The notes below the pieces were generated by a model. That model was given only the letters and a program-made list of their open reading frames with translations. It did no database searches and had not been told where the DNA came from. From IMG/VR virus record IMGVR_UViG_3300045988_134091, positions 1 through 52,932 of that record: 52,932 bases of DNA. One strand, 5' to 3'. This stretch comes from a virus. Both the position numbers and the translations under genes were made by a program. This document shows, in pieces, positions 1,037 through 52,932 of this stretch (position 1 is its first letter; every line of letters begins with the position of its first letter).

Positions 1037-1452
1037 ACCGTAGGGAACGCAGAAAACTGGAGCGCCAGGGGAAAATACCCAAGGCTGAGCCTGTCTATTT
1101 GATGAAGCCCTCAGACATTAAGGATGCGGCCCTGAAGGGGGCTGGTGAACAGGCTATGCTGAATGAGATTCATCAGCAGTGTTTGGCTGCAGACAAGTCA
1201 TTCACCCTTGATATGGATACCATATATCTCTGGACACTCCATAGCAAATATGGCTGGGGACTGAAACGCCTGAAACAGTTCTACAAGGAGGTGTTTGTTG
1301 AACACCGCCGTATGCGGGAGTTCTATGAGATGGATAGCACATATCCAGAGCGTTATCAACTGAAAAGCAAGGGCATAGACATTGAAGCTTGGTATAATGA
1401 GCTGTTTGATGAAGAAGGAAACTTCAAGAAGCCTGAGGAGATCAACATATGA
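1033..1452 (+). CDS. Hypothetical protein
   Basis: ORF track; RBS ggaggg upstream; start and stop both overlap the neighbouring genes. Confidence 0.55.
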   Translation: MNRRERRKLERQGKIPKAEPVYLMKPSDIKDAALKGAGEQAMLNEIHQQCLAADKSFTLDMDTIYLWTLHSKYGWGLKRLKQFYKEVFVEHRRMREFYEMDSTYPERYQLKSKGIDIEAWYNELFDEEGNFKKPEEINI

Positions 1453-3255: not shown

Positions 3256-3284
3256 TTTACTTTTGATTGAAGATAGGGTATGAT
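3256..3284 (+). promoter_or_regulatory. Class B promoter B1 (CTTTACTTTT type)
   Basis: TTTACT 3256-61, 17 nt, TATGAT 3279-84, then ACCAATGTAAGCAGGAGG. Confidence 0.55.
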
Positions 3285-3350
3285 ACCAATGTAAGCAGGA
3301 GGGAACGCCAGAAGCCCTCCCACAATAAAAATTTTAAGGAGTGTATTACA

Positions 3351-3899
3351 ATGCTGGAAATGAACAAGGGTGATAAGGTTATTCTAAAGGGTTTCACGGG
3401 TATCAAGCTGGGTGTGTTCCCGGTTGCGAGCACCACCAAAAAGACCATCACTGTGCTGAAAAAGAATGGTGATGAGATGGTGTTCGACCGCAAGACCGGT
3501 AAGCAGGTCAATGTTGAGGAGGGCAAGGAGAAGTATGCCAACAGCATCATCCCTGATGATGGCAGCTTTGTTGCTCCTTCCACGGCTGGTGCCAAGCGCA
3601 AGTCCACCAAGAAGGCAGCCAAGGTCAAGACCAAGGTTGAGGATGAGGCTGACGAGGACGATGAGGAGGACGATGAGGACAAGGCCCCCAAGAAGTCCAA
3701 GAAGGCAGCCAAGAAGCCTGCAAAGAAGTCTGCCCCCGTTGAGGATGACGAGGACGAGTATGAAGACGATGACGAGGACGATGAGCCCGTCCCTGTCAAG
3801 AAGTCCGTAAAGAAGGGCAAGAAAGCTGCCAAGAAGGGCAAGAAAGCAGCTGCGGATGACGACGAGGACGACGATGAGTTTGAGGAAGTTGATGACTGA
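3351..3899 (+). CDS. Early protein: N-terminal FTG domain (paralogs at 45214 and 45734) plus Lys-rich/acidic block tail
   Basis: RBS aaggag upstream of ATG 3351; KGFTGIKLGVF...FDRKTGKQVN...KYANSI motif; tail made of KKAAKK and DEDDE blocks. Confidence 0.7.
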   Translation: MLEMNKGDKVILKGFTGIKLGVFPVASTTKKTITVLKKNGDEMVFDRKTGKQVNVEEGKEKYANSIIPDDGSFVAPSTAGAKRKSTKKAAKVKTKVEDEADEDDEEDDEDKAPKKSKKAAKKPAKKSAPVEDDEDEYEDDDEDDEPVPVKKSVKKGKKAAKKGKKAAADDDEDDDEFEEVDD

Positions 3900-7022: not shown

Positions 7023-8018
7023 ATGGATTTGTATCATATACCGGGTGATACAGGCGGGGACTGGAGACTGGGAAAGTTTGTTGAGTATCAACATGAAGTC
7101 CCAAGCATCCATTACCGGGTTATGGGGCACTACATTGTTGACTGGGTACCAGATCGTGATGATGCTGTCATGATGTGTTGGTATATGTCGGCTACATACA
7201 ATGAAATAACCTGTATGCTGCTACAGGAACTGTTTGATTGGAGAAGCCTGACCCCAAAAACAGTGAAGGACTATTGCCAGAGATTTTGGCAGGAAACTAA
7301 ACCTGTACTTGACTTTGGGTCATCCCGAAGGTATGCCAAGAATATGGATTGGTTTCCAACCTTGATGGAGGCTTTTATCAGAACCACACACCGTAAACCC
7401 TACTCTTGGCTGCGAGGCTTAATTCAGGGTGATCCTGTGGAAGATTACAGACGGGTATTCAGTGCAGTTTCTGCCCTCCCCTACACAGGTAGGTTTGCAG
7501 CAGACCTGTTTATGGAGTCAGTCCTGTATTTGGGTGAGTATCTGGGCATAGAACTGACTGAGCCCTCCCTGTTAAACTGGAAAAAGTGCAGCAATCTCAC
7601 TTCCGGGTTGTTGAATATCTTCTATCGTGATGAGGAAGCAAATGAGTATGACAAGACTGGGAAACTCCCTGTGTCAGAAAAGTTCCTGACCAAGAAACTT
7701 GAAACTGTTCAGAGAAAGATTGAAAAGGTTTACCCTGAACAAGACAATGACATCAACCTATTCATTGGGAAAATCTGTAGCTTCAGAAACTTATTCAAAG
7801 CAACCCGTTATGGTGGATTTCATCATGACAGAGAGCTGGGTGTGCTGAGAGAGTACGAGCATGTATTGCCTGACTTTCAATACATTTGGGATAGGGCTTT
7901 TGACCTCAGAGAACAGATGTTTGATAAGCGGTTTCTTGGAGAGTTCCATGACTGGGATGGAATACGCCCAGAAAGAAAAAAGCTATGGCTGAGAGAGGGG
8001 TTGACTGGGGTTGAGTAG
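7023..8018 (+). CDS. Divergent paralog of the 47915 DNA base hypermodification protein (aGPT-Pplase / 5-hmdU-DNA-kinase helical-domain-like)
   Basis: Same length class as 47915-48922; shared GRFAADLF/GKFLSYQIF and CSFRNLFK/CFCELSKY motif positions; stop overlaps the start of the P-loop kinase; RBS tggagg upstream of ATG 7023. Confidence 0.4.
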   Translation: MDLYHIPGDTGGDWRLGKFVEYQHEVPSIHYRVMGHYIVDWVPDRDDAVMMCWYMSATYNEITCMLLQELFDWRSLTPKTVKDYCQRFWQETKPVLDFGSSRRYAKNMDWFPTLMEAFIRTTHRKPYSWLRGLIQGDPVEDYRRVFSAVSALPYTGRFAADLFMESVLYLGEYLGIELTEPSLLNWKKCSNLTSGLLNIFYRDEEANEYDKTGKLPVSEKFLTKKLETVQRKIEKVYPEQDNDINLFIGKICSFRNLFKATRYGGFHHDRELGVLREYEHVLPDFQYIWDRAFDLREQMFDKRFLGEFHDWDGIRPERKKLWLREGLTGVE

Positions 8019-8613
8019 AGTGCTGGTCAATGTACGGGGTTGTAACGGGGCTGGGAAGTCTACCATTCCCATGTCCATGATGGATGACCCTGAAATGTAT
8101 GTACACGAGATTATGGGGAGTGACGGGAAGAAAATAAGTGCCATCACCGTCTTTCCCTCCTATGGCTGGGTTGCCTTGGGAACATACTTCAACAAAACAG
8201 GTGGCCTGGATACCCTGAAGAACAATGCAGTTACCAAGCTGACTTTGTTCGCTGCCCTTGATGGGTTTCCTGAGTATGATGTGCTCCTGGAGGGCATTAT
8301 GGCAAGCACTATTCGCTCAACTTACATTGACTTGTTCCATGAAGTTGAGGACTACTACGGGAAGAAGCAGCTGAAGGTCATCGTGGTGTCCCTTCTCCCA
8401 CCCGTAGATGTGGCACTGAGCCGTGTTTATAAGCGCAATGGGGGTAAACCCATCAATGAAGCTGCGGTGGCAGGGAAGTGGAAGACTGTGGCAAGAAATG
8501 TGGCTGAATTTGCTGATGCTGGGTTCACCTCTATCAAAGTTAATTCCGCCAAGGTTAAAAAGAAGAACATGTTGCCGGCTTTTCTCAAGACCGTGAACAA
8601 ATACAGGGGGTAA
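8011..8613 (+). CDS. P-loop kinase, candidate 5-hydroxymethylpyrimidine DNA kinase (5-HMUDK-like)
   Basis: Walker A GCNGAGKST near the N-terminus; about 200 aa; translationally coupled to the upstream hypermodification-like gene. Confidence 0.5.
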   Translation: MSRVLVNVRGCNGAGKSTIPMSMMDDPEMYVHEIMGSDGKKISAITVFPSYGWVALGTYFNKTGGLDTLKNNAVTKLTLFAALDGFPEYDVLLEGIMASTIRSTYIDLFHEVEDYYGKKQLKVIVVSLLPPVDVALSRVYKRNGGKPINEAAVAGKWKTVARNVAEFADAGFTSIKVNSAKVKKKNMLPAFLKTVNKYRG

Positions 8614-8906: not shown

Positions 8907-9030
8907 TACCAATTGGCTGGATGAGGCTGTGGCCATTATTTCCAAGGGTACAGCTGACAGGCTCACAAAAGGAAACATTACTGTATACCGGGTGACGAAC
9001 ATCATCCGGATTGATATCAAGGAGGTTTAA
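8896..9030 (+). CDS. Small hypothetical protein (44 aa, below the ORF-track cutoff)
   Basis: gaaggagg lies 5 nt upstream of ATG 8896; the stop lies immediately upstream of the RBS-preceded ATG 9032. Confidence 0.4.
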   Translation: MKIDTNWLDEAVAIISKGTADRLTKGNITVYRVTNIIRIDIKEV

Positions 9031-9031
9031 C

Positions 9032-9742
9032 ATGGTCACCGTATTTGAAGGAAGAACTGTAAATGACGCTTGGCTGGCTGGGTTCAATGCCCTTCAGACT
9101 CAGGCTGAGAAAGGATACACCGCTGACTCCAGAGACGGGGGTGTGGTTGGGGAGATTTGCGATGCGGTTTTCTGTATTGAAGACCCCACACGGAACATCG
9201 TGAGCAGCCCCATTCGCAAGATGCCTATGCGGTATGCTGTGGGTGAGCTGGCCTGGTATCTTTCTGGATCCAATAAGGTCAAGGACATCTCCCAGTTTGC
9301 CAAGAAGTGGGCTGACATCTCTGATGATGGCGAGACAAACAACTCTGCCTATGGTTGGAGAATCTTTGACAAGTTTGGTTTTGACCAGTGGCAGTACGTG
9401 AAGGAGCTGCTTTGGAAAGACCCCAGTAGCCGTCAAGCCGTTATCCACATCAAGGATGCAAACAATCAGCCTACCAAAGATGTACCCTGCACGGTGTATC
9501 TTCAGTTCTTCATCCGGGATGGAAAACTGAACCTGTCTACCCATATGCGCTCCAATGATATTTGGATGGGTGTACCCTATGATATGTTCAGCTTCTGCTT
9601 CCTTCAGATGTTGATGGCTATGCAGCTGGGTGTTGAGATTGGGCATTATACCCATTATGCTGGTTCTCTCCACATGTACGCCAGAGACTATGAAGCAGCC
9701 AAGAAAAACATTTCAGCGTTGCCTCAGGCATCTTCTAACTGA
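9032..9742 (+). CDS. ThyA-family deoxypyrimidylate hydroxymethylase (T4 gp42-like; Asp at the TS Asn177 position suggests dCMP)
   Basis: aggagg RBS; NNSAYGWRIF, DPSSRQAVIHI, PCTVYLQFFIRDGKL, MRSNDIWMGVPYDMF, GSLHMYARDY. Confidence 0.8.
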   Translation: MVTVFEGRTVNDAWLAGFNALQTQAEKGYTADSRDGGVVGEICDAVFCIEDPTRNIVSSPIRKMPMRYAVGELAWYLSGSNKVKDISQFAKKWADISDDGETNNSAYGWRIFDKFGFDQWQYVKELLWKDPSSRQAVIHIKDANNQPTKDVPCTVYLQFFIRDGKLNLSTHMRSNDIWMGVPYDMFSFCFLQMLMAMQLGVEIGHYTHYAGSLHMYARDYEAAKKNISALPQASSN

Positions 9743-39998: not shown

Positions 39999-40229
39999 TC
40001 AGTCACCCGCCTCAGCAATCTGCTTGTTGATGTACTCACCCTCAGAGATGTACTGTTGAGCCATATCAACAGTGTACTGATAGATGGTCATCTTGCGCTG
40101 GATATTTGCCACAGCTCTTTTGTCCCCACGCTTCAGGGCATTGACCAGATTGGTCTTGGCCCGTCTAAGCTGAGTCTTATTGAACCGAACAACATCAGAA
40201 GGGGTTGCCACAAAAGTTTCAACTTTCAT
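39999..40229 (-). CDS. Hypothetical protein between terS and terL
   Basis: ATG 40229 lies inside track ORF 39999-40253. Confidence 0.45.
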
Positions 40230-40911
40230 CAGTGTCCCTCCTTCCTCGCACAATATTGATGGTCAGGTTGTCATCCTCGTTACCCTCATCAATCAGTCTG
40301 CGCTTGAGCTCAAACTCATCCCGACGCAGCTGAGAATCGGCTTTGGCTTTCTTGATATCAGCCTGTTCCTTGTGCCCAACCCAATTGTAGCAACAGTCAA
40401 GAACAAATTGAGCACCCCTCTGACCATCTTTGTCATACAATCGTTTTTCAGCATAGGCTTCAATGGTCTGCTTTGCTTTCAGTATAACGCGGGAGAATGT
40501 CAGCTTGTCATCTGTCTCAGCTTTCATCTCATCCAATACTTCATCAATGAACCCGTCTTGGTATTTCTTCAGGGTAGTCGTTGATACTCCCAAGTACAAG
40601 CTCAAGCCTGACACTGTGTAAGGTTGAACTTGGACTTTTACAAGGTTTCCTTGCTTGTCATACACAAGTTGACCCCATTTGTCAATCAAAGGCCCATTGC
40701 AGCTCTCAAAGTACTCGTTGACCATACACTGCAGATGTTCCGGGCTCATGAATTTCCGCTTCATCCCTTTTGAAGGGTTCAACCGTCCATTGAAAGGATT
40801 GTGCGGATTTCTGATACCTCTCAAGTCCAGTTCCAGATGTCGCTCATCCTTGAGGATGTACCGCACAACAGGCTTCTTTGGTGCGTCAATAATGATTTGC
40901 TTTTTTGCCAT
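40219..40911 (-). CDS. terS: Terminase small subunit
   Basis: gggaggg lies upstream of ATG 40911; PYTVSGLSLYLGVSTTTLKKY HTH; first gene of the late operon. Confidence 0.75.
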   Translation of the reverse strand: MAKKQIIIDAPKKPVVRYILKDERHLELDLRGIRNPHNPFNGRLNPSKGMKRKFMSPEHLQCMVNEYFESCNGPLIDKWGQLVYDKQGNLVKVQVQPYTVSGLSLYLGVSTTTLKKYQDGFIDEVLDEMKAETDDKLTFSRVILKAKQTIEAYAEKRLYDKDGQRGAQFVLDCCYNWVGHKEQADIKKAKADSQLRRDEFELKRRLIDEGNEDDNLTINIVRGRRDTDES

Positions 40912-40960
40912 GTACACCCTCCCTTCTTTGTCAATACAACGGGTTCCCCCGTTTACACCT

Positions 40961-40989
40961 ATATTACTATAAGTATTCGGAAAAGTAAA
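40961..40989 (-). promoter_or_regulatory. Class B promoter B3 (CTTTACTTTTCCGA type) upstream of terS
   Basis: - strand TTTACT (40989-84), 17 nt, TAATAT (40966-61); the 14-mer CTTTACTTTTCCGA is shared with B2. Confidence 0.55.
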
Positions 40990-41158
40990 GCATTTACTCC
41001 CAAAATAAACAAGATTTGTGTATTTTTCACGATTTTTCTTGAGTTTTACCCTCAAAATAAATAGAAATTCGAGCCCAGGGGGCACGCCCTATACCCGGCG
41101 CAGCCGATTTTACCGAAAAACATGTGAGTGTTCATGTATTCAGACTTGTTTACACTTT

Positions 41159-41214
41159 CACGATTATAACGCCGTAATCGTGTCTTGAACCACGCGATTA
41201 TGGCGGCGTATCGC
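41159..41214. repeat. Two related short inverted repeats upstream of the late operon
   Basis: cacgatta-taacgccg-taatcgtg (41159-82) and gcgatta-tggcggc-gtatcgc (41194-214). Confidence 0.6.
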
Positions 41215-41672
41215 ATCTGTGGAAATACACTCAAGCCCTCATAATTCCATACAAGTACACGACTATTTTCTGTTTTCCCTTGAGGGGTTGAGCCCTTTTC
41301 CTTGACTTTTGAGGGAGGCTTTTTCTTGATATTACTTCTGGGAGTTATTCATTCACCCCGAAAAATAGGCGGAAATGCGAAAAATTGCTTGATACTACTC
41401 CCGCGAGTAATGCAAAAATAGGTAAAATAGTCTCATAATCACACTCAAGTGCACGAAAATGGTGGTGAAGGTTCATTGGTGAAAAAGTGAGAAAACGAAA
41501 CTTTCTCTCAATGGTGGTTCAGCAGCCTTGAAAATCCCGCCTATTTTTAGTCCTATCTCTTTTATATATAAATAGTATATTATACTTTCTATTTTATATA
41601 TATTTTCTATTACCTCTAAAAATAGAGTGTAAAAATAGGCGTTGATAAACTTGAGTGAATCTTGTGTGTTTA

Positions 41673-41761
41673 CGCCTATTTTACTGTTACTCCACGGAGT
41701 AAAATGTTTGAACTCTCAGAGACACTTTTTCCGCTTTACGCCTATTTTTATACCTATTTTT
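41673..41761. repeat. 89-bp direct repeat, copy a
   Basis: Aligns without gaps to 41902-41990, about 85 percent identity by hand count. Confidence 0.85.
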
Positions 41762-41901
41762 CGATTTCATCCCCAATAAATCCGCCTATTTTTAGAAAAT
41801 TCCCCCATACTTGTACACCCTCCCCCCTTAAATTTTCGTTACCTCCGGCGATAGAGTGTAAAAATAGTCTCATAATTTGCCCCAAAATCCTTGGGGAATT
41901 G

Positions 41902-41990
41902 CGCCTATTTTACTGTTACTCCGTGAAGTAAAATCCTTGAACTCTCAGAGGCGATTTTTTCATTTCCCGCCTATTTTTATACCTATTTTT
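41902..41990. repeat. 89-bp direct repeat, copy b
   Basis: Aligns without gaps to 41673-41761. Confidence 0.85.
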
Positions 41991-41996
41991 GCAAAA

Positions 41997-42059
41997 TTGA
42001 TATATCAACAAATTCCTTGACCCCTATTGAGACTATTTTTACACTTTTTGATATATCAA
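41997..42059 (+). promoter_or_regulatory. Promoter-like element flanked by two identical 12-bp palindromes (candidate operators)
   Basis: TTGATATATCAA at 41997-42008 and 42048-42059; TTGACC 42017-22, 17 nt, TACACT 42040-45 between them. Confidence 0.5.
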
Positions 42060-42190
42060 AAACTCGCTCCCGCTGTGAAAAATTATTCTTGACTCCCAAG
42101 TGACCATTTGTGAGGATTTCAACAAGCCCAAGCAATAACTTCTGGAGCTGCCACAGTTTCAAAATTTTTTCAAAAGTTTCAAAATTTCGC

Positions 42191-42238
42191 TTGACTTTTC
42201 CAATTCTTGGTAGTATGATATGATTGTAAAGAGGAAAG
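42191..42238 (+). promoter_or_regulatory. Class A promoter A3 plus conserved leader box
   Basis: TTGACT 42191-96, 17 nt, TATGAT 42214-19, then ATGATTGTAAAGAGGAAAG. Confidence 0.75.
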
Positions 42239-42287
42239 AACACTCAAAGAAAACACGACAGGCCAAAAGGCCGGAAAGGACAACAAA

Positions 42288-42779
42288 ATGGAAAGCATTA
42301 AAGTCACCTCTCAGAATCAGCTTGATAAGCTGCCGACCAATTACATTGGAAGAATTTGCGTTTGCTTCGGGACTCCGATCAACCCCGCAATTATAAGAGG
42401 CGAGCATAAATACGCCACTATTCTAGTCGCTGGCCACAGTTGCGCGGTAGTTATGGGCGATGCCCACATCATCGCGCGCGACAGCAGCAGCGTTGTGGCA
42501 CTTGGCGGCAGCACTGTTGCGGCGCACAATAGCAGCCATGTCGAGGCACGAGACGTCAGCAGCGTTGTGGCTTTTGATTATAGCACCGTCGTCGCTTGGG
42601 ATCGCAGCCACGTCGAGGCACGCGGCCACGTATGCGTCGACGCGCGCGATGACAGTGAGATTAACGTCGTTATGCTGAACAACACCATTGTCGCGCGGGA
42701 CAACAGCAAAGTTGAGGCATGGAGCGGCAACAACATCACGGCGCTTGGCAACGCCACTGTCCTGTATTTTGATCTCTAA
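42288..42779 (+). CDS. Beta-solenoid-like repeat protein (about 8-residue xSxVxAxD repeats)
   Basis: SSHVEARD/VSSVVAFD/YSTVVAWD/RSHVEARG/HVCVDARD... tandem units; GC-rich; first gene after promoter A3. Confidence 0.65.
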   Translation: MESIKVTSQNQLDKLPTNYIGRICVCFGTPINPAIIRGEHKYATILVAGHSCAVVMGDAHIIARDSSSVVALGGSTVAAHNSSHVEARDVSSVVAFDYSTVVAWDRSHVEARGHVCVDARDDSEINVVMLNNTIVARDNSKVEAWSGNNITALGNATVLYFDL

Positions 42780-44110: not shown

Positions 44111-44380
44111 ATGAATGCTATCAATATTGGATTGGGCAACTTTGTCTCCGCAGACCGGGTGGTTGCCATTGTGAGTCCGGAATCTGCCCCCATCAAGCGT
44201 ATGGTACAGGAGGCCAAGGACAAGGGAACGGCAGTTGATTCCACCTATGGTCGTAGAACAAGAGGGGTGTTGATTATGGATAGCGGGCAGCTTGTGCTGT
44301 CCTCTCTCCAGCCCTCTACGATTGTTGCCAAGAGCACAACAAAGAATGCCAAAGAAAAGGCGGTTGATGACGATGACTGA
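44111..44380 (+). CDS. remA: RemA (DUF370) family DNA-binding regulator homolog
   Basis: [68 protein letters not shown] matches the B. subtilis RemA pattern recalled from memory. Confidence 0.85.
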
Positions 44381-45213: not shown

Positions 45214-45603
45214 ATGAATTACATATACATCAACACCCGTGACAATCGTCAGTACATCCTCAACCCCATGATCACAATGGGTGAGAAGGTTTGCTTGGTT
45301 GATATGGCCAATTGTGAGGACAAGTTTGTATCCCTCAAGACCTTGAAGCGGTGGTACAGCAAAACCATTACTGAGCAGCCTGTTGTTGAACTGCGGGCCT
45401 TTACTGGTATGAAGATTGGACTATTCCGGGCTGAGCTTGCTACCAATACCAACACTCTGTATCTGTGGACCAAGCAGAACAAGCTCCTGACCTTTGACCT
45501 AGATATGGGGAATCAGACCAATGCCAAGAATCCCAAGTTTGCCAATCGCATTCACGACACATACGACTTCTTGGAAAGCTCCTTGAACTGGGTTTTGTCT
45601 TGA
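45214..45603 (+). CDS. Early protein with C-terminal FTG domain
   Basis: gaggagg RBS; RAFTGMKIGLF...FDLDMGNQTN...KFANRI. Confidence 0.65.
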   Translation: MNYIYINTRDNRQYILNPMITMGEKVCLVDMANCEDKFVSLKTLKRWYSKTITEQPVVELRAFTGMKIGLFRAELATNTNTLYLWTKQNKLLTFDLDMGNQTNAKNPKFANRIHDTYDFLESSLNWVLS

Positions 45604-45686: not shown

Positions 45687-45733
45687 ACATACAGACCGGA
45701 ACACCTGTACATTTGAAAAGGAGATTGAATACA

Positions 45734-46483
45734 ATGAAAAAGACCATCATCACCTACACCAGCCGCAAGAATGCTTCCAAGGTTTACACCCTGGTTTCCT
45801 TCGATGAGGCCAATAACACCGCTGTTCTGACTGATTCCAATGGAACTGAGCACATCATGAAGCTGACCACTCTTCGCAAGACCTTCAAGAAGTCCGTTGA
45901 GGAAGTCGAGGTTGAGGAGCCCAAGACCGAAACCGAGACTATGACCAAGCATCAGAAGAGTGCCCTGAAGAATATCCGCTGCGGATACAACTGGGTCATC
46001 GGTGGCCTGGAAAACGCCGTTCAGGATGGTGAGATGGAAGAGATGCCCGCTGTCGAGGAGATGTTTGAGGAAGTGTACGATGAGGTTACCAGCTGCACCT
46101 TTGATGAAGGTTTCGGTGATTCCCAGGCTGCTCCCATCTGCATGAAGTTCGCTGGTAAGAAGTTCATCCGTGAGCAGATTGCCAAGCTGTTCCGGGCTGA
46201 TGGTTATGAGGTGTCTGAGGAACTGGTTGCTGTTCCTGAGCACAAGACTGGTCACAGCAACTTTGTAGATGGTGAGCGCATCAATCTCCGCAAGGATGAG
46301 GGCGAGAGAGTGGTCAAGGTCAGAGCCTTCACGGGTATGCTGATTGGGACATTCAAGGTGGAGAAGGAAACCAAGACCACCATCACCGTCAAGACTGCCA
46401 AAGGAAAGATGAAGTTTGATCGAGAAACTGGAATCCAGGTTAACTCGAACAACAAGAAGTTCGCCAACCGCATCGAAGTCTGA
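45734..46483 (+). CDS. Early protein with C-terminal FTG domain
   Basis: aaaggag lies upstream of ATG 45734; RAFTGMLIGTF...FDRETGIQVN...KFANRI. Confidence 0.65.
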   Translation: MKKTIITYTSRKNASKVYTLVSFDEANNTAVLTDSNGTEHIMKLTTLRKTFKKSVEEVEVEEPKTETETMTKHQKSALKNIRCGYNWVIGGLENAVQDGEMEEMPAVEEMFEEVYDEVTSCTFDEGFGDSQAAPICMKFAGKKFIREQIAKLFRADGYEVSEELVAVPEHKTGHSNFVDGERINLRKDEGERVVKVRAFTGMLIGTFKVEKETKTTITVKTAKGKMKFDRETGIQVNSNNKKFANRIEV

Positions 46484-46625: not shown

Positions 46626-46666
46626 ATATGCATGAGGCTGAATGGCCAGAAAAGGAGGTATCACCA

Positions 46667-47245
46667 GTGAAACAGTATCTGTTATCGGAGGAAGATCGCA
46701 AGAAGGACTTGTTGGAGCTGCTTGAAAAGAACAATGTTCCGCTTGAGTTGTTCCCGTATGAGTGGTTGTGTACCACAGATTTCTTCAGAGCACCTGCTTC
46801 AAAAGGATTCCACGCAGCATATCCGGGGGGATTGTATGACCACTGTGTAAATGTCACTTCCCAGCTCTTGGATATGAGAGACAAGGGAGTGACGCAAACT
46901 TGGGGCCGGGTTGAAAGCCCAATTATTGTGGGCATGCTACACGATGTCACAAAGATCGGTATGTACATCCTGAGTCAAGACATGAACCCAATCAAGCAGG
47001 GGATTGAAACATTTCACATCAAAAACCCTCTGTACAGCGGCTTTGGTGGACATGGGTATGATTCAGTATGCAAGATTGAACAGCACATGAGGCTGACAGA
47101 AGAGGAACGGTTGTGTATCAGATACCATATGGGTGCCTATGAGACAGATGATTGGAGCGGGTATGATAGAGCAATCAGAAAGTTTCCAAATGTACTCTGG
47201 ACACACACCGCTGATATGTTGGCCTCCAAACTGATGGAGGATTGA
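46667..47245 (+). CDS. HD-domain phosphohydrolase
   Basis: aaaggagg lies 8 nt upstream of GTG 46667; FHAAYPGGLYDHCVNV and MLHDVTKIG (H...HD) motifs. Confidence 0.65.
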   Translation: MKQYLLSEEDRKKDLLELLEKNNVPLELFPYEWLCTTDFFRAPASKGFHAAYPGGLYDHCVNVTSQLLDMRDKGVTQTWGRVESPIIVGMLHDVTKIGMYILSQDMNPIKQGIETFHIKNPLYSGFGGHGYDSVCKIEQHMRLTEEERLCIRYHMGAYETDDWSGYDRAIRKFPNVLWTHTADMLASKLMED

Positions 47246-47249
47246 AACA

Positions 47250-47918
47250 ATGGTTCTATACTCTGGGAACAAGGGGAAACCTCTCAAGAAAAGACACTCC
47301 AACCCGTACTGCATATTTTTCTTTATCTGCTGTGTGCTTCTGATGGCCTCAGTACTGTTGAATGTGAAGGCCATTAACCTGCTCAGGGCCTCTGTGGAAC
47401 AAACCAAACAGGCTATCTCTGTGGCAGAGGATGCACAGACGATTGCAAACCAGGCTGTGTACAATATGAGAACCACAAAATACCCTGAGCTTGAGCCTGA
47501 GTTATGCTGTGACAAGGAAGCCTATGTGGACTCTGTAGCGGCAGAATACCTGGCCAATGTTGCTTGGGGCGAGGCTCGTGGTTGCTCTGTGACAGAACAG
47601 GCAGCTGTTATGTGGTGTGTACTCAACAGAGTGGATAGCCCTTTGTACCCAGATTCTGTAGGGGAGGTTGTTACACAGAGGGCTCAATTTAATGGATATT
47701 CTGCAAGCAACCCGATTACTCCAGAGTTACTCCAGTTGGCTAATGATGTGTTGACCTATTGGTCTAAGGAGGATGACTCTGGCCGGGTTTTGCCAAAAGA
47801 ATATCTGTATTTCATCGGGGATGGTAAACATAACTATTTTTATAAAACATGGGGTGGCAATGCAACAGCTTGGGATTGGAGCTTGCCCAGCCCTTATAAG
47901 GAGGATACGATAAAATGA
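47250..47918 (+). CDS. SleB/CwlJ-family cell wall hydrolase with N-terminal signal-anchor TM
   Basis: YCIFFFICCVLLMASVLL TM; NVAWGEARGCSVTEQAAVMWCVLNRV...QRAQFNGY. Confidence 0.75.
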   Translation: MVLYSGNKGKPLKKRHSNPYCIFFFICCVLLMASVLLNVKAINLLRASVEQTKQAISVAEDAQTIANQAVYNMRTTKYPELEPELCCDKEAYVDSVAAEYLANVAWGEARGCSVTEQAAVMWCVLNRVDSPLYPDSVGEVVTQRAQFNGYSASNPITPELLQLANDVLTYWSKEDDSGRVLPKEYLYFIGDGKHNYFYKTWGGNATAWDWSLPSPYKEDTIK

Positions 47919-48922
47919 GAACCAAGCCTGCAGATACCCTGTATTGCGGAGTAGACAAGGAGCGCATCAAGAAAGCTAAACCTGTGCTGAATGAGCGCAA
48001 TCTTTTGTACCTGTACAATTTTATCAAGCGAAGATATGTCATCCACTTGAGAAAGGATGTTTTGAAGAAAGACCCACCCTGGACCAATGACCAAGTGCTG
48101 CGGAATTTCCGGTTCACCAACATTCGCCGAGAGCATGACAAGGAGAGCAAGTGGGTGATTGAGCACATCGCCAATAACCCTGAGCTGTCTTATGAGGACA
48201 AACTGCTCAATGCCATCCTTTTTCGGCTTTACAACAAGCATGAAACCGCTGAGCTGATTTCCATGCCGATCAAGTTCAGCCAAACCCCTGACTGGAATCC
48301 TGAGTGGTACAGAAGTCTGTTTGAAGCTGCTCTGGCTGAAGATCCTCATGTGAAGTTCTTTACTGGTGCATTTAACACCGGAGGCCTGAAGCGCGCCTTG
48401 AAATGGTATCTTCCCAAGGATGACCCAAAAAACAGTATGCCCATGAGGGTGCTTTGGTTTATCCAGTATCTTATTGGGGAAGACATCGTTGGTCAAGTGA
48501 AGAGCTGTACCAGACAAGATGAAGTATGTAATACATTGTCATCTTATATGGGTCTTGGGAAATTCCTTTCCTACCAGATTTTTGTTGATATGACTTATAT
48601 CAAGGAGTTTCCATTCTCTGAGAATGAGTACACACAGGCTGGCCCCGGCTGCGTTATGGGCCTCGACTATCTGTTTGAAGACAGAGATGGGATGACCTAT
48701 GAGGAATGTCTGTTTTGGCTGAGGGATAACCTGGACAGGCTGTTTGTGGAGGAGCTGGGAAAAGACTGGGATGCCAAACGGGTATTCTGGGATTTGCCTG
48801 AAGAAGACAGGTGCTTCAATGTTATGTCCCTGGAAAATTGCTTCTGCGAGTTGTCAAAGTACATCCGAGCCAAGGATGGAACAGGCAGACCTCGGAAAAA
48901 GTACAATGGTGGTGGAAGATGA
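47915..48922 (+). CDS. DNA base hypermodification protein family (aGPT-Pplase / 5-hmdU-DNA-kinase helical-domain-like)
   Basis: PPWTNDQVLRNFRFTNIRREHDKESKW signature plus GKFLSYQIFVDMTY...GPGCVMGL and ENCFCELSKY, recalled from phage thymidine-hypermodification genes. Confidence 0.55.
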   Translation: MRTKPADTLYCGVDKERIKKAKPVLNERNLLYLYNFIKRRYVIHLRKDVLKKDPPWTNDQVLRNFRFTNIRREHDKESKWVIEHIANNPELSYEDKLLNAILFRLYNKHETAELISMPIKFSQTPDWNPEWYRSLFEAALAEDPHVKFFTGAFNTGGLKRALKWYLPKDDPKNSMPMRVLWFIQYLIGEDIVGQVKSCTRQDEVCNTLSSYMGLGKFLSYQIFVDMTYIKEFPFSENEYTQAGPGCVMGLDYLFEDRDGMTYEECLFWLRDNLDRLFVEELGKDWDAKRVFWDLPEEDRCFNVMSLENCFCELSKYIRAKDGTGRPRKKYNGGGR

Positions 48923-49737
48923 TTCCTGTATTTGTACCATCCTATCAGAGACCTGACGCTGTATTTTTGAAGAGGAGTGTTCTGTACAAGTTTCCTCTAT
49001 ACGTGTTCATTCGCAAAGAAGAGAAAAGTGAATACGAGTGGCTGAAATGTCGCCCTGAAACAACCTTGGTTTTACTTAAGAATGTGGAAAACATTGGAGA
49101 AACCAGACGAGCAATGTTCAATTATGCTGTCAAGAAAGGAATTGACAAAGTTTTCATGATTGATGATGATGTTTCTCGGTTAGACATATCCGTGTGGGAT
49201 GAGGAAAGAGAAGTAGTTCGTGCTTCTGGAACAGTCAAAGGGAAACCTGAGGATTGGAGAAAGGCTCTGACCAAATGGGAGACCGAATGGGAAAATGAAG
49301 CCCTATTTGGTGCATCCTATCGCCCATTCAGCTGGTCTATGAAGAAAGAAGTGTTTGGAGGGAAAAGTCGGGCACAACTACAACAAGCTGTTGGTGTGAA
49401 TATTGCTCTTCTCAACTCTGCCGGCCTCAACTACCAAAGCAATTCTGTAGTTGGTAATGAAGATCTGTTTCTTCAACTGGAGTGCTATCAACATGGACTT
49501 GAGTGCCTAAAGACTTCTATGGTTCAGTATGACTGCCCAGCAATGGGTTCCGGTACAGGAGGATGCAACTCATCAGAATTGGGAACAATACAAGAAAAAC
49601 AAGAAGTCCGGGTAGAACGATTTTGTCGTGCTTGTACTGAGCCCTCTTTGATTCGTGTTGGCCAAACTCGTTCTGGCGTAAAGAGTGTGAAATTTGTTTG
49701 GTCACAAATTTCAAGATTGATGGAGGATACAAAATAA
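48919..49737 (+). CDS. GT-A-fold glycosyltransferase-like protein (TET/JBP-associated-glycosyltransferase-like)
   Basis: N-terminal IPVFVPSYQRPD strand; FMIDDDV (DxD); ATGA overlap with the upstream gene. Confidence 0.5.
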   Translation: MIPVFVPSYQRPDAVFLKRSVLYKFPLYVFIRKEEKSEYEWLKCRPETTLVLLKNVENIGETRRAMFNYAVKKGIDKVFMIDDDVSRLDISVWDEEREVVRASGTVKGKPEDWRKALTKWETEWENEALFGASYRPFSWSMKKEVFGGKSRAQLQQAVGVNIALLNSAGLNYQSNSVVGNEDLFLQLECYQHGLECLKTSMVQYDCPAMGSGTGGCNSSELGTIQEKQEVRVERFCRACTEPSLIRVGQTRSGVKSVKFVWSQISRLMEDTK

Positions 49738-50228
49738 TGAGTAAATTGAAAAGCCTGTGTCGGAAAGACTGTCTGGATATGGCTCAGTCCTATGCTGACA
49801 AAGTCAGTGGGTGTAGAAAAGTGGCAGTGGGTTCTGCCATTGTGAGTGCTGAGGGGAATGTTATTGCTATGGGGGCCAACCGGGCTGTGCCTGACTTGTG
49901 TAAAACACCCCGTGGATGCCTCCGTGTGGAAAAATATGGGGAGGATAGCAAGAATCACAGAAACCCTGAAGACTGCCGTGCAATTCACAGCGAGATTGAT
50001 GCCATTTGTAGTGCAGCCTCTTCTGGTGTGCCTGTAAAGGGTTCTTCCATTTTTGTAACCAGATACCCATGCGAGGGTTGTGCCAAAGCCATTATTGCTG
50101 CTGGTATCAAGAAGGTGTACTATGGTGGGACAGCCCATATAAGCCCGCAGACGGCAGTTATGTTCAGGGCCTTTGGTGTGGATTGTACCTATATCTCAGA
50201 CTGGAAGGAAGACAATAGTGATAGATGA
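49737..50228 (+). CDS. dCMP deaminase (ComEB/T4 Cd-like)
   Basis: CRAIHSEIDAI (HxE) and RYPCEGCAKAI (PCxxC); ggagg RBS; TAATG overlap. Confidence 0.85.
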   Translation: MSKLKSLCRKDCLDMAQSYADKVSGCRKVAVGSAIVSAEGNVIAMGANRAVPDLCKTPRGCLRVEKYGEDSKNHRNPEDCRAIHSEIDAICSAASSGVPVKGSSIFVTRYPCEGCAKAIIAAGIKKVYYGGTAHISPQTAVMFRAFGVDCTYISDWKEDNSDR

Positions 50229-50320: not shown

Positions 50321-50656
50321 ATGGAAAACACTGAACAGTTAGTTCTGCCCACTCTGCCTGTTACGCCTATATTGACCGAAGAAACCTGTACCAAATTGGT
50401 AGAGGCTTTTCAGGCCATTGGAGATGCTATTGTAAAAGCGTTTGAGCCTGTAGTATTGGCTATATCTGAGGTTGTAAATAGCCTGGTTATCCCCGTAGTA
50501 CAGGAGCTGATGAAAAAGCTGTTCAAGATTGCATCACCTTCCAAAGTGTATTATTTGGCATATCATGGAAAGAAGCGTCGAACAAGAAAGAAAAATCTGA
50601 AACGCTTGATGCGTTATTGGGAGGAATTCATCAATGGATGTTACAAGGTTCATTAA
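50321..50656 (+). CDS. Hypothetical protein with basic C-terminus
   Basis: ggaaggag lies upstream of ATG 50321, inside track ORF 50270-50656. Confidence 0.5.
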   Translation: MENTEQLVLPTLPVTPILTEETCTKLVEAFQAIGDAIVKAFEPVVLAISEVVNSLVIPVVQELMKKLFKIASPSKVYYLAYHGKKRRTRKKNLKRLMRYWEEFINGCYKVH

Positions 50657-51050
50657 CAAAAAGCAGCGGGAAGTTCTGGCAAGGGCAAGAAAAACTTATG
50701 GGGACACTGCCCAAATTCTGGTGTCTACGGAAGAACTGTGTGAGCTGGCTGCGGTCTGTTCCAAATACCCCCGGTACCAGACCAAGGAAAAGGCTCAGGA
50801 TGAGCTTCATGACAAGGCTGTAGATGAGGTTGCAGATGTCCTAATTGTACTTGACCATGTCATCAATATTTTTGGTTTGACTCCGGTTGATATTGGGGAC
50901 AGGATTGCTGGGAAGGTTGCCCGTCTGGAAAGATGGCTCAATACATCTAACAGCATGGAACAGACCACGGTAGACAGAAAGGTTCCTGGTCAGCTTCACA
51001 TCACAGAAATGTGCCAGGGAGGTTTGTTTGAGCCGATTGAGGAGGAATGA
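50634..51050 (+). CDS. MazG-like nucleoside triphosphate pyrophosphohydrolase
   Basis: EELCELAA...DEVADVLIVLDHV EExxE/D-type helices. Confidence 0.65.
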   Translation: MDVTRFINKKQREVLARARKTYGDTAQILVSTEELCELAAVCSKYPRYQTKEKAQDELHDKAVDEVADVLIVLDHVINIFGLTPVDIGDRIAGKVARLERWLNTSNSMEQTTVDRKVPGQLHITEMCQGGLFEPIEEE

Positions 51051-51053
51051 CGC

Positions 51054-52932
51054 ATGAAGCTGAGTGAGTTTGACTCTCTCATTGGTCAAGACAGCTATGT
51101 GCGTTGTATGGGAAAGAAGCGGTTGGACAACTCCATCGTGAACGAAAAGGCCGCAGACGCTCACCTGTTCTCTGGGGGACAGATTGGCTGGTGGGTGCGG
51201 TCTGGCTACATAGTTGTAGATATAGATGAAGGAAAAGAAGAAGCCATGAAAGTGGTGAAGAGGCTGGGTCTCAAAACTCTGATGGCTCAGACTCCAAAAG
51301 GGCTTCATCTGTATTTCAAATGTGATAAGGAATACCCCCAGCGGGTTGGAATGGTTCTCCCTTGTGGATTGAAATGTGACTTTCGCTGTGCCAATAAGGG
51401 TTATGTCATATTGCCTTTTGGGTCAGAGGGTCGCCGGTTCAATAAGTGCAGAAAGATTGCAGAGCTGCCACCTGAGTTTACACCGATGGTGAACCGCAAA
51501 GAAAGCCTGTTGGGGTTGAAAGATGGGGATGGAAGAAATGCAACCCTGTTTGCTCACCTTATGGCCTACAAGAACAGAGGTGCTTCAGATGAGCAGATTG
51601 AGGAAATGGCTGATGTTATCAACAGTATCATATTCGCTGACCCTATGGATGAGAAGGAACTGGAGAAAATTGTTGAGAACACCAGGAAATATGAGGCATC
51701 AAAGCAGTTCGACAACCCCTATCTGATTTACAGTGCAAAAGGAGTCCCCACAAATATCAACCATAGGGCTATCTGTGACTACTTTGTGAACAAAGGGGGC
51801 ATCTTTGTACTAGGCGGGGAGTGCTATCAATACCGGGATGGCGTGTATGTTGAAGCAAGCAGCCATGTCCGGAATACCATCAAGGATATGATTGTTGTGG
51901 ATACGCTTATCACACAAAATCGTATCATGGAGTGCTTCAGGTTGATTTGTGATGATGTGAGGCTTCAGCGGACTGCAGCCGAACTGAACCATGACAAAAA
52001 CCTTATCAATTTCCAGAACGGGGTTTGGGATATAGAACGAGGAGAGCTTTTGCCTCATGACAGCAAGTATCTCCAGACGCTTCAAATTCCGCACCCGGTT
52101 GGAGAGTATAAGCCATTCAAGGAAACCCGGCTGTATGACTTTTTCAAGAAAACCAACCTGCCCAAAGAGGACATCAAGATGCTGCTCAAATACATGGCCT
52201 ATTGTCTCACCTTGGACTACGGGTTGAAGACATTCATGATTCTCTGCGGTCAGTCCAATACCGGTAAATCTGTGTTGATTCGATTCTTTGAAAACCTTGT
52301 TGGCAAGCAAAATGTGTCCTCTCTGAGCATGCATGAGCTGAATATGCGGTTCTACCCATCCCAGCTGTACAATAGGTTACTGAACTCTTGTGCAGATAAC
52401 TCATCTTTGCCATTGTCATCTATTGAAAACCTGAAGAAGATTACAGGCGGTGACCAGATTATGCATGAGAAGAAGGGCAAGGAACCATTTTTCTTTGTGC
52501 CGTTCTGTAAGTTGATTTTTAGTTTCAACCAGTTACCGCTTCAGCTGGAAGAAAAGTCCAATGCATTCTACAAGCGCATGAGGATTCTGTTCATGAACAA
52601 TGAGTTGTTTTTGAACAATGACTATGTAAATGACCTATGTAGTGAGGAGAGTGTATCTGAGATTATTCCATACCTGCTTCATCTTCTGCCAGTGAAAGAC
52701 ATCCCTCGTACATCGACCAGTGACAAGTATGTGGAGGCACTGCGGCAGGATTCTGACAGCATCCACGCCTTCATTGCTAAACATTGTGAGCTGGGACCAG
52801 GGTTGTCTGTAGAGAAAAATGCACTATATGAGGCATACTGCCGGTTTTGTGTGGATACGGGCCGGGAAAACAGCAAAAAGCACTCTTTTATGAGAAATAT
52901 CCGCTCCCAGGGGTTCAAGGAATCAAGAGATG
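51054..52932 (+). CDS. Bifunctional prim-pol / D5-like SF3 helicase (continues to 105 across the junction)
   Basis: No stop before the window end; YIVVDIDEG and TPKGLHLYF (prim-pol); LCGQSNTGKS Walker A; LIFSFNQLP (SF3 motif). Confidence 0.85.
   Translation, partial: MKLSEFDSLIGQDSYVRCMGKKRLDNSIVNEKAADAHLFSGGQIGWWVRSGYIVVDIDEGKEEAMKVVKRLGLKTLMAQTPKGLHLYFKCDKEYPQRVGMVLPCGLKCDFRCANKGYVILPFGSEGRRFNKCRKIAELPPEFTPMVNRKESLLGLKDGDGRNATLFAHLMAYKNRGASDEQIEEMADVINSIIFADPMDEKELEKIVENTRKYEASKQFDNPYLIYSAKGVPTNINHRAICDYFVNKGGIFVLGGECYQYRDGVYVEASSHVRNTIKDMIVVDTLITQNRIMECFRLICDDVRLQRTAAELNHDKNLINFQNGVWDIERGELLPHDSKYLQTLQIPHPVGEYKPFKETRLYDFFKKTNLPKEDIKMLLKYMAYCLTLDYGLKTFMILCGQSNTGKSVLIRFFENLVGKQNVSSLSMHELNMRFYPSQLYNRLLNSCADNSSLPLSSIENLKKITGGDQIMHEKKGKEPFFFVPFCKLIFSFNQLPLQLEEKSNAFYKRMRILFMNNELFLNNDYVNDLCSEESVSEIIPYLLHLLPVKDIPRTSTSDKYVEALRQDSDSIHAFIAKHCELGPGLSVEKNALYEAYCRFCVDTGRENSKKHSFMRNIRSQGFKESRD
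52878..52932. repeat. Terminal direct repeat, copy 2 (identical to 1-55)
   Basis: Exact 55-nt match to the window start. Confidence 0.95.

What the first reader, a model, noticed from the sequence alone, without database searches (positions are those of the whole stretch)
41362..41990. Iteron-rich, AT-rich repeat field in the divergent intergenic region: candidate origin of replication
The 1.2-kb gap between the late (-) and early (+) units has no convincing ORF. It contains these elements:
- eight perfect copies of CGCCTATTTT (six forward, two reverse), plus three degenerate copies
- two 89-bp direct repeats (41673-41761 and 41902-41990, about 85 percent identical with no gaps), each holding two iterons and an internal TTTTACT...AGTAAAA inverted repeat
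- three copies of AGTGTAAAAATAGTCTC (one inverted, at 42027-42049)
- a roughly 55-bp almost pure A/T tract (about 41560-41615)

Iterons flanking an A/T-rich unwinding element are the classic origin architecture. In phage P4 the primase-helicase itself binds origin iterons, and this phage encodes a prim-pol/SF3 helicase.
Basis: partly seen in the sequence, partly recalled or inferred. Interest (0 to 1): 0.65.

Follow-up and report, generated by a model that had tools for sequence, protein, structure and literature searches.

The report
Likely phage replication origin with iterons
A 630-base non-coding stretch between the early and late genes of an uncultured gut phage carries about 15 copies of a short repeat arranged symmetrically around the easiest-to-melt DNA in the genome, which most likely marks where the phage's own primase-helicase starts DNA replication; this is a new example of a known design, not a new kind of element.

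Summary
CGCCTATTTT occurs 8 times, all within 41362-41977 (0.05 expected). Counting weaker copies, 17 of the genome's 20 CTATTTT heptamers lie in the field.

The field surrounds the least stable 80 bp of the 52.9-kb circular genome. About 60 related phage contigs carry the same architecture. An AT-rich tract of roughly 60-170 bp is bracketed by two inward-pointing repeats, further repeats point outward on both sides, and same-strand spacings follow the DNA helical repeat (about 10.8 bp).

The repeat sequence drifts between clades (CCTATTTTT, CCTAATTTT, CCGATTTTT, CCAATTTTT), but the layout is kept.

The phage encodes a P4-alpha-type primase / SF3 helicase with an RFX-type winged-helix C-terminal domain. 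Its closest solved relative is SaPI5 PriRep5, a self-loading initiator-helicase whose origin has iterons in opposite orientation on both sides of a central AT-rich region.

- **Best reading (about 0.57):** an iteron origin of the SaPI/P4 type.
- **Rivals:** a transcription-switch complex, or a terminase (pac) recognition region.
- **RemA-like early protein:** I considered it as the binder and rejected it.

This is a new member of a known kind, of moderate interest. Nothing here shows replication directly.

The parts
41538..41547 (+). Left bracket iteron CGCCTATTTT, pointing into the AT tract
   Evidence: Perfect copy. An inward-pointing + site sits immediately left of the AT tract in 14 of 16 related fields.
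41548..41631 (.). AT-rich tract, candidate DNA-unwinding element (core 41560-41615 is 89% A+T)
   Evidence: Only 60-nt window with at least 85% A+T in the genome. Least stable 80-bp duplex, 5.6 sd below the genome mean. Composition is conserved in relatives, but the sequence is not and indels are frequent.
41632..41641 (-). Right bracket iteron CGCCTATTTT, pointing into the AT tract
   Evidence: Perfect copy. The bracket pair lies 90-105 bp apart across iteron classes A, B, D and E.
41362..41434 (-). Left outer iterons pointing away from the AT tract: one perfect (41362-41371), plus degenerate TACCTATTTT (41415-41424) and GAGACTATTTT (41424-41434)
   Evidence: Invariant in close relatives.
41673..41761 (+). 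Direct-repeat unit 1: iteron 41673, inverted repeat TTACTCC..GGAGTAA, TTGAAC, then a double iteron at 41739 / 41751 (12-bp spacing, 66 bp from the first iteron)
   Evidence: The module with 65-66 bp spacing recurs in L005, L006, L008 and L013; L018 has a related module at 70-75 bp.
41783..41792 (+). Perfect iteron, 32 bp after the double iteron
   Evidence: A 32-bp spacing is the commonest same-strand spacing family-wide.
41855..41871 (-). Degenerate iteron GAGACTATTTTTACACT (written AGTGTAAAAATAGTCTC on the + strand)
   Evidence: GACTATTTTT is a principal iteron form in relative L016.
41902..41990 (+). Direct-repeat unit 2 (85% identical to unit 1): iterons at 41902, 41968 and 41980
42029..42045 (+). 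Degenerate iteron GAGACTATTTTTACACT overlapping a promoter-like TTGACC-N17-TACACT (42017-42045)
41260..41269 (+). Outlying degenerate iteron CGACTATTTT
51054..52932 (+). Primase / SF3 helicase gene (642 aa; runs across the circular junction to about window position 105); candidate initiator with a winged-helix C-terminal domain
   Evidence: Domains found: PriCT_1, D5_N, DUF5906, and RFX_DNA_binding at residues 570-618. TIGR01613 P4 family, 125.5 bits against a cut-off of 108.7. Best PDB match is 7OLA, SaPI5 PriRep5. The recognition-helix segment GRE..KKH.F.RN.R..G is conserved across all iteron classes.
42191..42219 (+). Early promoter candidate TTGACT-N17-TATGAT, right boundary of the control region
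   Evidence: 10 of 12 consensus matches. Conserved in relatives.
40219..40911 (-). Small terminase gene (P22 gp3 type), left neighbour of the region and the binder in the rival packaging hypothesis
   Evidence: phrog_606. PF16677 GP3_package.

Best explanation
The field is most likely the phage's origin of replication, of the type used by self-loading SF3 initiator-helicases (SaPI Rep/PriRep, P4 alpha).

Proposed mechanism; every step is inferred, none is shown:
1. The winged-helix C-terminal domain of the 642-aa primase-helicase recognises the 9-11 bp iterons, (CG)CCTATTTTT.
2. The iterons lie on one face of the helix and form two mirror-image sets around an AT-rich tract of about 84 bp.
3. 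Two helicase rings assemble, one on each side, and melt the tract. This tract is the least stable duplex in the genome.
4. The N-terminal prim-pol domain primes synthesis, and the phage PolA extends bidirectionally.

The degenerate outer iterons, the 89-101 bp duplicated modules and the overlapping promoters probably tune loading. They may also couple initiation to early and late transcription.
For: **Shown directly**
- Extreme, exclusive clustering of the repeat.
- A unique AT-rich minimum of duplex stability inside the field.
- No other non-coding repeat cluster in the genome.

**Comparative evidence**
- The field lies in the same place in all relatives found through terS, RemA, primase and terL.
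- Its iteron core drifts between clades: CCTATTTTT, CCTAATTTT, CCGATTTTT, CCAATTTTT, CGACTTTT.
- Three features stay constant despite that drift. One AT tract is bracketed by inward-pointing iterons 90-105 bp apart in 14 of 16 fields. Outer iterons point outward. Same-strand spacings peak at 11-12, 21-22, 32-33, 42-43, 53-54 and 64-66 bp, with Rayleigh R 0.58 at a 10.8-bp period over 175 pairs.

**Trans-factor evidence**
- The primase-helicase has PriCT_1, D5_N, an SF3 core and an RFX-type winged helix at 570-618. It passes the TIGR01613 P4-family cut-off.
- Its best solved relative is 7OLA, SaPI5 PriRep5.
- Published SaPI origins have 6-12 iterons, a central AT region and at least two iterons on each side in opposite orientation. 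They are read by the Rep winged-helix C-terminal domain (PMC9371898).
- P4 alpha has the same primase / SF3 / winged-helix organisation (PMC2777425).

**Elimination**
- No small early protein is shared by all iteron classes.
- Among the gene families shared by all classes, only the primase-helicase and terS belong to known classes of sequence-specific DNA binders.

**Decoupling from terS**
- In the distant relative bajarodcaudo virus 5 (primase 39% identical, terL 60%), tandem 13- and 15-bp repeats abut a 140-bp AT tract. They sit at the head of the replication unit, 9 kb from terS.
Against: - No replication data of any kind were available.
- The origin is 9 kb from the initiator gene. SaPI origins lie immediately downstream of rep.
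- Iteron variants do not track the primase C-terminal domain cleanly. L032 and L033 have 97% identical C-terminal domains but different iteron sets. L044 and L056 keep CCTA-type iterons with a domain only about 51-55% identical.
- The few class-specific residues (positions 562, 611, 632) can be explained by a single branch of the tree.
- The ratio of between-class to within-class divergence is the same in all primase domains (about 1.8).
- Within the family, the field is always adjacent to terS.
- The field is larger (630 bp, about 15 sites) and its iterons longer than in SaPI origins.
- The GC-skew minimum is confounded with gene orientation.
Confidence: 0.57

Rival explanations
1. The field is a transcription-switch region. 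The repeats would be operator or activator sites of a phage or host regulator, forming a wrapped complex that controls the divergent early promoter and the late terS promoter. The AT tract would act as bendable DNA or an UP-like element.
For: - The field lies exactly between the early and late units.
- Promoter-like sites overlap iteron variants: TTGACC-N17-TACACT at 42017-42045 and TTGACT-N17-TATGAT at 42191-42219.
- CTTGA-type -35-like elements recur beside iterons.
- Two perfect TTGATATATCAA palindromes flank one promoter.
- Helical phasing also suits a cooperative regulator.
- A RemA-like multi-site DNA-wrapping protein is encoded in the early unit (PMC8481266).
Against: - No early-region regulator is shared by all clades that keep the field. 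RemA, e4 and e5 homologues are missing from class D, and RemA and e5 from class E, by both tblastn and HMM search.
- RemA-like genes in four unrelated gut-phage contigs have no repeat field within 10 kb.
- RemA's known sites are poorly conserved 7-bp repeats with a contiguous 10-bp period, unlike these dispersed, well-conserved, two-orientation sites.
- An AT tract of 60-170 bp under compositional constraint only, with dyad symmetry around it, is not a usual promoter feature.
- A regulator encoded in the untested late region or by the host is not excluded.
Confidence: 0.2
2. The field is a packaging recognition (pac) region. The small terminase ring would bind the phased repeats on both sides of the AT tract, and the terminase would make the first headful cut there, as in P1 pac or SPP1 pacL/pacR.
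For: - terS is the immediate neighbour of the field in every family member examined, in all iteron classes.
- terL is a PBSX-family headful terminase.
- The terS N-terminal 50 residues differ between iteron classes A/B/C and D/E.
- Repeats flanking a central region is also the layout of P1 pac (own knowledge).
- Many family contigs end inside the field.
Against: - The terS is of the P22 gp3 type. P22's pac site lies inside the terS gene itself (own knowledge).
- The first iteron is 450 bp from the terS start. A different, family-wide conserved element (GCCCAGGGGGCAC, with two TTTACYCYCAAAATAAA repeats) lies in between.
- Contig ends are scattered over about 600 bp, and one carries a Nextera adapter. 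They look like assembly breaks, not termini.
- L056 and L018 share CCTAATTT iterons but have unrelated terS N-termini.
- In bajarodcaudo virus 5 the repeat and AT field is 9 kb from terS.
- At 630 bp with about 15 sites, the field is much larger than any pac site I know of.
Confidence: 0.12

Closest known systems
SaPI (staphylococcal pathogenicity island) origins read by Rep / PriRep5 self-loading helicases
   Same: - Short iterons, 6-12 or more, around a central AT-rich region.
- At least two iterons on each side, in opposite orientation.
- The initiator is an SF3-type helicase, fused to a primase in SaPI5, with a winged-helix C-terminal domain (PMC9371898).
- PriRep5 (7OLA) is the best PDB match of this phage's primase-helicase.
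   Different: - A SaPI ori lies immediately downstream of rep. Here the field is 9 kb upstream of the gene, in the early/late divergent region.
- Iterons here are 9-11 bp rather than 5-6 bp.
- The field is about 630 bp, with duplicated 89-101 bp modules.
- The element is a 52.9-kb virulent-looking phage with its own PolA, not a satellite.
- Similarity to PriRep5 is remote (E 3.8e-12).
Satellite phage P4 ori / crr with the alpha protein
   Same: - The initiator has the same domain order: primase, SF3 helicase, C-terminal winged helix (PMC2777425).
- It passes the TIGR01613 P4-family cut-off.
- The origin is distant from the initiator gene, and the 89-101 bp direct repeats carrying iterons recall crr's direct repeats (own knowledge).
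   Different: - The iteron sequence is unrelated (P4 type I is TGTTCACC; own knowledge).
- Only one field is present, with no second cis region.
- The primase domain is of the prim-pol/PriCT type, not DnaG-like as in P4 alpha.
Iteron origins of plasmids and lambdoid phages (RK2, pSC101, F, lambda ori)
   Same: Repeated initiator sites in helical phase next to an AT-rich unwinding element.
   Different: - Those origins use tandem direct repeats, about 22 bp apart, on one side of the unwinding element, often with DnaA boxes.
- Here the sites are dispersed, in both orientations and dyad-symmetric.
- No DnaA box lies in the field.
Lactococcal phage c2 origin
   Same: The origin lies in the non-coding region between divergent early and late gene clusters and overlaps promoters (own knowledge, not checked in the library).
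   Different: Replication of c2 depends on an ori transcript and host functions. No P4-type initiator-helicase or symmetric iteron field is known there.
RemA-bound regulatory regions of Bacillus subtilis
   Same: Multi-site AT-rich repeats on one helical face. A RemA-like gene is present in the window.
   Different: - RemA sites have a contiguous 10-bp period and are poorly conserved.
- The gene is absent from clades that keep the field.

Membership tests
SaPI-type origin (self-loading Rep helicase) | Six or more short iterons | tested here: met
   8 perfect and at least 7 degenerate copies.
SaPI-type origin (self-loading Rep helicase) | AT-rich region near the centre with iterons on both sides | tested here: met
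   Tract 41548-41631, with 4-5 sites to the left and about 10 to the right. The same holds in relatives.
SaPI-type origin (self-loading Rep helicase) | At least two iterons on each side pointing in opposite directions | tested here: met
   Left of the tract the order is -, -, +. Right of it the order is -, +, +, +, +. This dyad pattern is kept in 14 of 16 fields.
SaPI-type origin (self-loading Rep helicase) | [quoted passage not shown] | tested here: not met
   The field is 9 kb upstream of the primase-helicase gene. No repeat cluster lies downstream of it.
SaPI-type origin (self-loading Rep helicase) | Cognate initiator-helicase with a winged-helix C-terminal domain | tested here: met
   RFX_DNA_binding at 570-618, 28.6 bits against a cut-off of 27. 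Best PDB hit is 7OLA.
SaPI-type origin (self-loading Rep helicase) | Initiator binds the iterons specifically and melts the AT region | not testable with these tools
   Needs EMSA, footprinting or permanganate probing. Covariation was inconclusive.
SaPI-type origin (self-loading Rep helicase) | The fragment supports replication | not testable with these tools
   Needs a plasmid or marker-frequency assay.
P4 alpha family initiator | P4-family primase C-terminal region (TIGR01613) above the curated cut-off | tested here: met
   125.5 bits against 108.7.
P4 ori/crr | Type I iterons TGTTCACC and a bipartite ori plus crr | tested here: not met
   The iteron sequence differs, and there is a single field in the genome. 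The P4 sequence is from own knowledge.
Plasmid / lambda-type iteron origin | Tandem direct iterons about 22 bp apart on one side of an unwinding element | tested here: not met
   Sites are phased at about 10.8 bp but dispersed (12-124 bp apart), in both orientations and on both sides.
Plasmid / lambda-type iteron origin | DnaA boxes in or beside the origin | tested here: not met
   No TTATCCACA match with up to 1 mismatch between 36463 and 49083.
Terminase pac site | Lies within or directly at the terS gene and is bound or cut by terminase | tested here: inconclusive
   The field is adjacent to terS family-wide, but 450 bp away with another conserved element in between. It is decoupled from terS in bajarodcaudo virus 5. 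Cutting is not testable here.
RemA-type wrapped regulatory region | A RemA protein co-occurs with contiguous 10-bp-period AT-rich repeats | tested here: not met
   RemA is absent in classes D and E, which keep the field. Unrelated RemA-encoding phages lack a field. The spacing pattern differs.

The most novel reading that the evidence does not exclude
These phages carry a full thymidine-hypermodification gene set: two 5-hmdU DNA kinase domains, a TS-like hydroxymethylase, dCMP deaminase, an NTP pyrophosphatase and a glycosyltransferase-like gene. The invariant half of every iteron is a T5 run, and the unwinding element is almost pure A/T. The origin could therefore be read and melted in a modification-dependent way. 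The winged-helix initiator might distinguish hypermodified from unmodified iterons, for example parental versus nascent DNA. In some clades a phage RemA-like ring might also wrap the AT tract. That would be an origin whose licensing depends on non-canonical bases.
Probability: 0.12. Interest if true: 0.7.

Novelty: new member of a known kind. Interest (0 to 1): 0.42.

Why it matters
If confirmed, this gives a defined origin and a cognate self-loading primase-helicase for a widespread family of uncultured gut phages. At least 60 contigs were seen here, many from a single metagenome.

The natural series of iteron variants (CCTA-, CCGA-, CCAA-, CGAC-) could be used to study how winged-helix initiators change specificity. 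It would also extend the SaPI-type origin design from satellites to full-size phages.

Practically, the field explains why assemblies of this family often break at this point. It also marks a hypervariable control region useful for strain typing.

The result does not change any general concept of replication initiation.

Tried and rejected
- **RemA-like protein (44111-44380) as the iteron binder.** This was attractive because RemA wraps DNA through many sites. I rejected it for three reasons. The gene is missing from clades D and E, which keep the field. Four unrelated RemA-encoding phage contigs have no field. The site pattern also differs.\n- **Non-coding RNA or tRNA.** There was no Rfam match at E up to 1 and no tRNA. 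The TTACTCC..GGAGTAA inverted repeats fold only weakly as single strands (-2.6 to -3.7 kcal/mol). Inner-pair changes between copies exist but are few.\n- **Hidden ORF.** ORFs are short, mostly with TTG or GTG starts. Frame-breaking indels occur among close relatives.\n- **Contig ends as physical genome termini.** The ends are scattered over the field, and one is an adapter junction.\n- **Covariation of iteron class with the primase C-terminal domain or the terS N-terminus.** Both correlate only along the main A/B/C versus D/E split. Discordant cases exist for both. Iterons are also heterogeneous within one genome (L016), which removes most of the power of the test.\n- **Finding family members with the same terS but a different replication module.** Every contig with this terS also has the field. 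More distant terL relatives have a different terS.\n- **blastn of the region against GenBank phages.** No match.\n- **GC skew.** The minimum is at 41-42 kb, but it is inseparable from the change in gene orientation.\n- **DnaA boxes.** None in the field.

Full report
**Context**

The window ends share 55 identical bases, so it is a circular assembly of about 52.9 kb. The - strand from 40911 downward encodes a small terminase (40219-40911), a large terminase and a portal. The + strand from 42288 onward carries a variable early unit. That unit runs across the junction into a replication module: primase-helicase 51054 onward, PolA 1449-3155, a PD-(D/E)XK nuclease, AAA_24, DUF669 and an SNF2 helicase. 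The finding lies in the 1376-bp gap between these units, 40912-42287.

Yes.
- CGCCTATTTT occurs 8 times, 6 on the + strand and 2 on the - strand, all within 41362-41977. Shuffles expect 0.05 copies.
- Relaxing the motif to CTATTTT places 17 of the genome's 20 copies in 41263-42033.
- The two 89-bp repeats are 85.4% identical. They extend to 101 nt with a 229-bp period.
It is not a separate element. The same GACTATTTTT form is a main iteron in a relative.
- The A/T tract is the only window of 60 nt with at least 85% A+T in the genome. It is also the least stable 80-bp duplex by 5.6 standard deviations.
- No other non-coding repeat cluster exists in the genome.
- No RNA family, tRNA or conserved ORF explains the region.

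**Comparative anatomy**

I collected relatives through four queries: terS (9 loci), the RemA-like protein (9 loci), the primase-helicase (47 loci, 66-100% identical) and terL (80 loci). Every contig that carries this terS family has a repeat field in the same place, and most of those fields also hold an AT tract.

The repeat core changes between clades:
- CCTATTTTT in the window's clade
- CCTAATTTT
- CCGATTTTT
- CCAATTTTT
- CGACTTTT

One genome mixes several forms. The consensus is a CG/CC-rich 5' part, two or three variable positions, and an invariant T4-5 run.

Three architectural features survive this turnover:
- A single strongly AT-rich tract of roughly 60-170 bp sits in the field. Its sequence is not conserved and it is full of indels, even among near-identical relatives.
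- The tract is bracketed by two iterons that point into it, 90-105 bp apart. This holds in 14 of 16 non-redundant fields across classes A, B, D and E. The next iterons on either side point outward, giving a dyad-symmetric layout.
- Same-strand spacings cluster at 11-12, 21-22, 32-33, 42-43, 53-54 and 64-66 bp. The Rayleigh R is 0.58 at a 10.8-bp period for 175 pairs, so the sites lie on one face of the helix. The fields are homologous, so these are not independent trials. What they show is conservation through sequence turnover.

**Who binds?**

The early unit between the field and the nucleotide-modification genes is almost completely different between clades.

A RemA-like protein (PF04025, E 1.7e-31) first looked like a good candidate. 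RemA wraps DNA through many AT-rich repeats (PMC8481266). I rejected it for three reasons:
- It is absent, by tblastn and by HMM search, from clades D and E, which keep the field.
- Four unrelated gut-phage contigs that encode it have no field.
- RemA's site pattern is a contiguous 10-bp period of poorly conserved sites, which does not match.

The gene families shared by all clades are nucleotide-modification enzymes, the primase-helicase, PolA, recombination proteins and one unknown acidic protein, plus the packaging and structural genes. Only the primase-helicase and TerS belong to known classes of sequence-specific DNA binders.

The primase-helicase has these features:
- PriCT_1, D5_N and an SF3 core (DUF5906).
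- A C-terminal RFX-type winged helix at residues 570-618.
- It passes the curated P4-family cut-off (TIGR01613).
- Its best solved relative is 7OLA, the SaPI5 PriRep5 protein.

The paper on that structure describes Reps as self-loading initiator-helicases whose C-terminal winged helix reads 6-12 short iterons. Those iterons are arranged with a central AT-rich region and at least two sites on each side in opposite directions (PMC9371898). P4 alpha has the same primase / SF3 / winged-helix organisation (PMC2777425). The presumed recognition segment, GRE..KKH.F.RN.R..G, is conserved in all clades. This fits the conserved half of the iteron.

**Limits of the trans-factor argument**

- The primase C-terminal domain is the fastest-evolving part of the protein. 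Its ratio of between-class to within-class divergence (about 1.8) equals that of the other domains.
- Two phages with 97% identical C-terminal domains have different iteron sets. Two phages with only about 51-55% identical domains keep CCTA-type iterons.
- Three C-terminal positions (562, 611, 632) separate classes A/B/C from D/E and follow the iteron type in the divergent lineages. A single ancestral branch can explain this.
- The terS N-terminus shows the same coarse split and its own discordances.

Covariation therefore decides nothing.

**Rival 1: packaging site**

In favour:
- The field is adjacent to terS in every family member.
- The terminase is a PBSX-family headful enzyme.

Against:
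- The terS is of the P22 gp3 type.
- A different conserved element lies between terS and the field: GCCCAGGGGGCAC plus two 17-nt repeats.
- Contig ends that fall in the field are scattered, and one is an adapter junction.
- In bajarodcaudo virus 5 (primase 39% identical, terL 60%), tandem 13- and 15-bp repeats abut a 140-bp AT tract at the head of the replication unit. They are 9 kb from terS.

**Rival 2: transcription switch**

In favour:
- The field lies between the early and late units.
- Promoter-like sites overlap iteron variants.
- Two perfect TTGATATATCAA palindromes flank one promoter.

Against:
- No conserved regulator was found.
- A long tract under compositional constraint only, with dyad symmetry, is not expected of a promoter region.

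The two functions are not exclusive. Phage origins often sit in promoter regions.

**Verdict**

- The origin interpretation is the best-supported reading, at about 0.57. Transcription-switch and pac readings stand at about 0.2 and 0.12, and the remainder is unassigned.
- In mechanism the field resembles SaPI and P4 origins. It meets their architectural and initiator features but fails the positional one, since it is not next to the initiator gene.
- It is not a classical tandem-iteron, DnaA-box origin.
- It is a new member of a known kind.
- The most unusual aspect, untested, is that the T-rich iterons and the unwinding element would be built from hypermodified thymidines. This follows from the phage's 5-hmdU kinase pathway genes.

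Noticed in passing
window 44111-44380 (+): An 89-aa RemA-like protein (PF04025, E 1.7e-31) is encoded in the early unit. It is the best-conserved early protein among close relatives (92-98%). It is present only in clades with CCTA-type iterons. It also occurs in four otherwise unrelated human-gut phage contigs (MT835604, MT835528, MT835556, MT835883). Its role in phages is unknown.
   Followed up: yes
window 47915-48922, 8011-8613, 9011-9742, 49698-50228, 50634-51050, 46628-47245, 48811-49737: A thymidine-hypermodification gene set is present. It comprises 5-hmdU DNA kinase helical and kinase domains, a thymidylate-synthase-like gene, dCMP deaminase, an NTP pyrophosphohydrolase, an HD hydrolase and a glucosyltransferase-like protein. 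The phage DNA probably carries modified T.
   Followed up: partly
window 41997-42008 and 42048-42059: Two perfect 12-bp palindromes, TTGATATATCAA, lie 51 bp apart and flank the promoter-like TTGACC-N17-TACACT. They look like operators of a dimeric repressor. They are conserved in close relatives, with more copies in L025.
   Followed up: partly
window 41074-41116, with 40993-41009 and 41045-41061: A GC-rich island, GCCCAGGGGGCACGCCC..CGGCGCAGCCG, is conserved across the family. Variants GCCCAGGGTGCA and GCCCAGGGCGCA occur in other clades. Two TTTACYCYCAAAATAAA repeats lie between it and terS. This could be a pac site or a late-leader element.
   Followed up: partly
window 42288-42779 (+): The first early gene (163 aa, with internal SSVVA/HVEAR-type repeats) has no homologue even in a relative whose terS is 99% identical. 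The first early position is hypervariable.
   Followed up: partly
window 45214-45603, 45713-46483, 3267-3899: Three proteins share a C-terminal domain (RAFTGM.IG.F...KFANRI). One of them, next to PolA, is present in all family members. Its function is unknown.
   Followed up: no
loci L038, L039, L042, L053, L055, L057, L063, L067, L001, L011: Many IMG/VR contigs of this family end inside the repeat field, at scattered positions. L011 starts with a Nextera adapter sequence. These are probably assembly breaks in a hypervariable, AT-rich region, not genome termini.
   Followed up: partly
window 41687-41702, 41916-41931, 41396-41412: An inverted repeat, TTACTCC-N2-4-GGAGTAA, follows a subset of iterons in clades A, B and C. 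Some copies and relatives show paired changes (CTCC/GGAG, CTTC/GAAG, and TTTTCTCC/GGAGAAAA in L008). It folds weakly as a hairpin and is not found in clades D or E. It remains unexplained.
   Followed up: partly
L071 44966-46000 and L070 1-440 (PQ006096.1 44966-46437): Bajarodcaudo virus 5 has its own repeat and AT field in a divergent intergenic region. The field holds three 47-bp-period repeats, tandem 13- and 15-bp repeats, a 140-bp AT tract and GTATACACCATAC repeats. The record annotates only tiny hypothetical ORFs there.
   Followed up: partly
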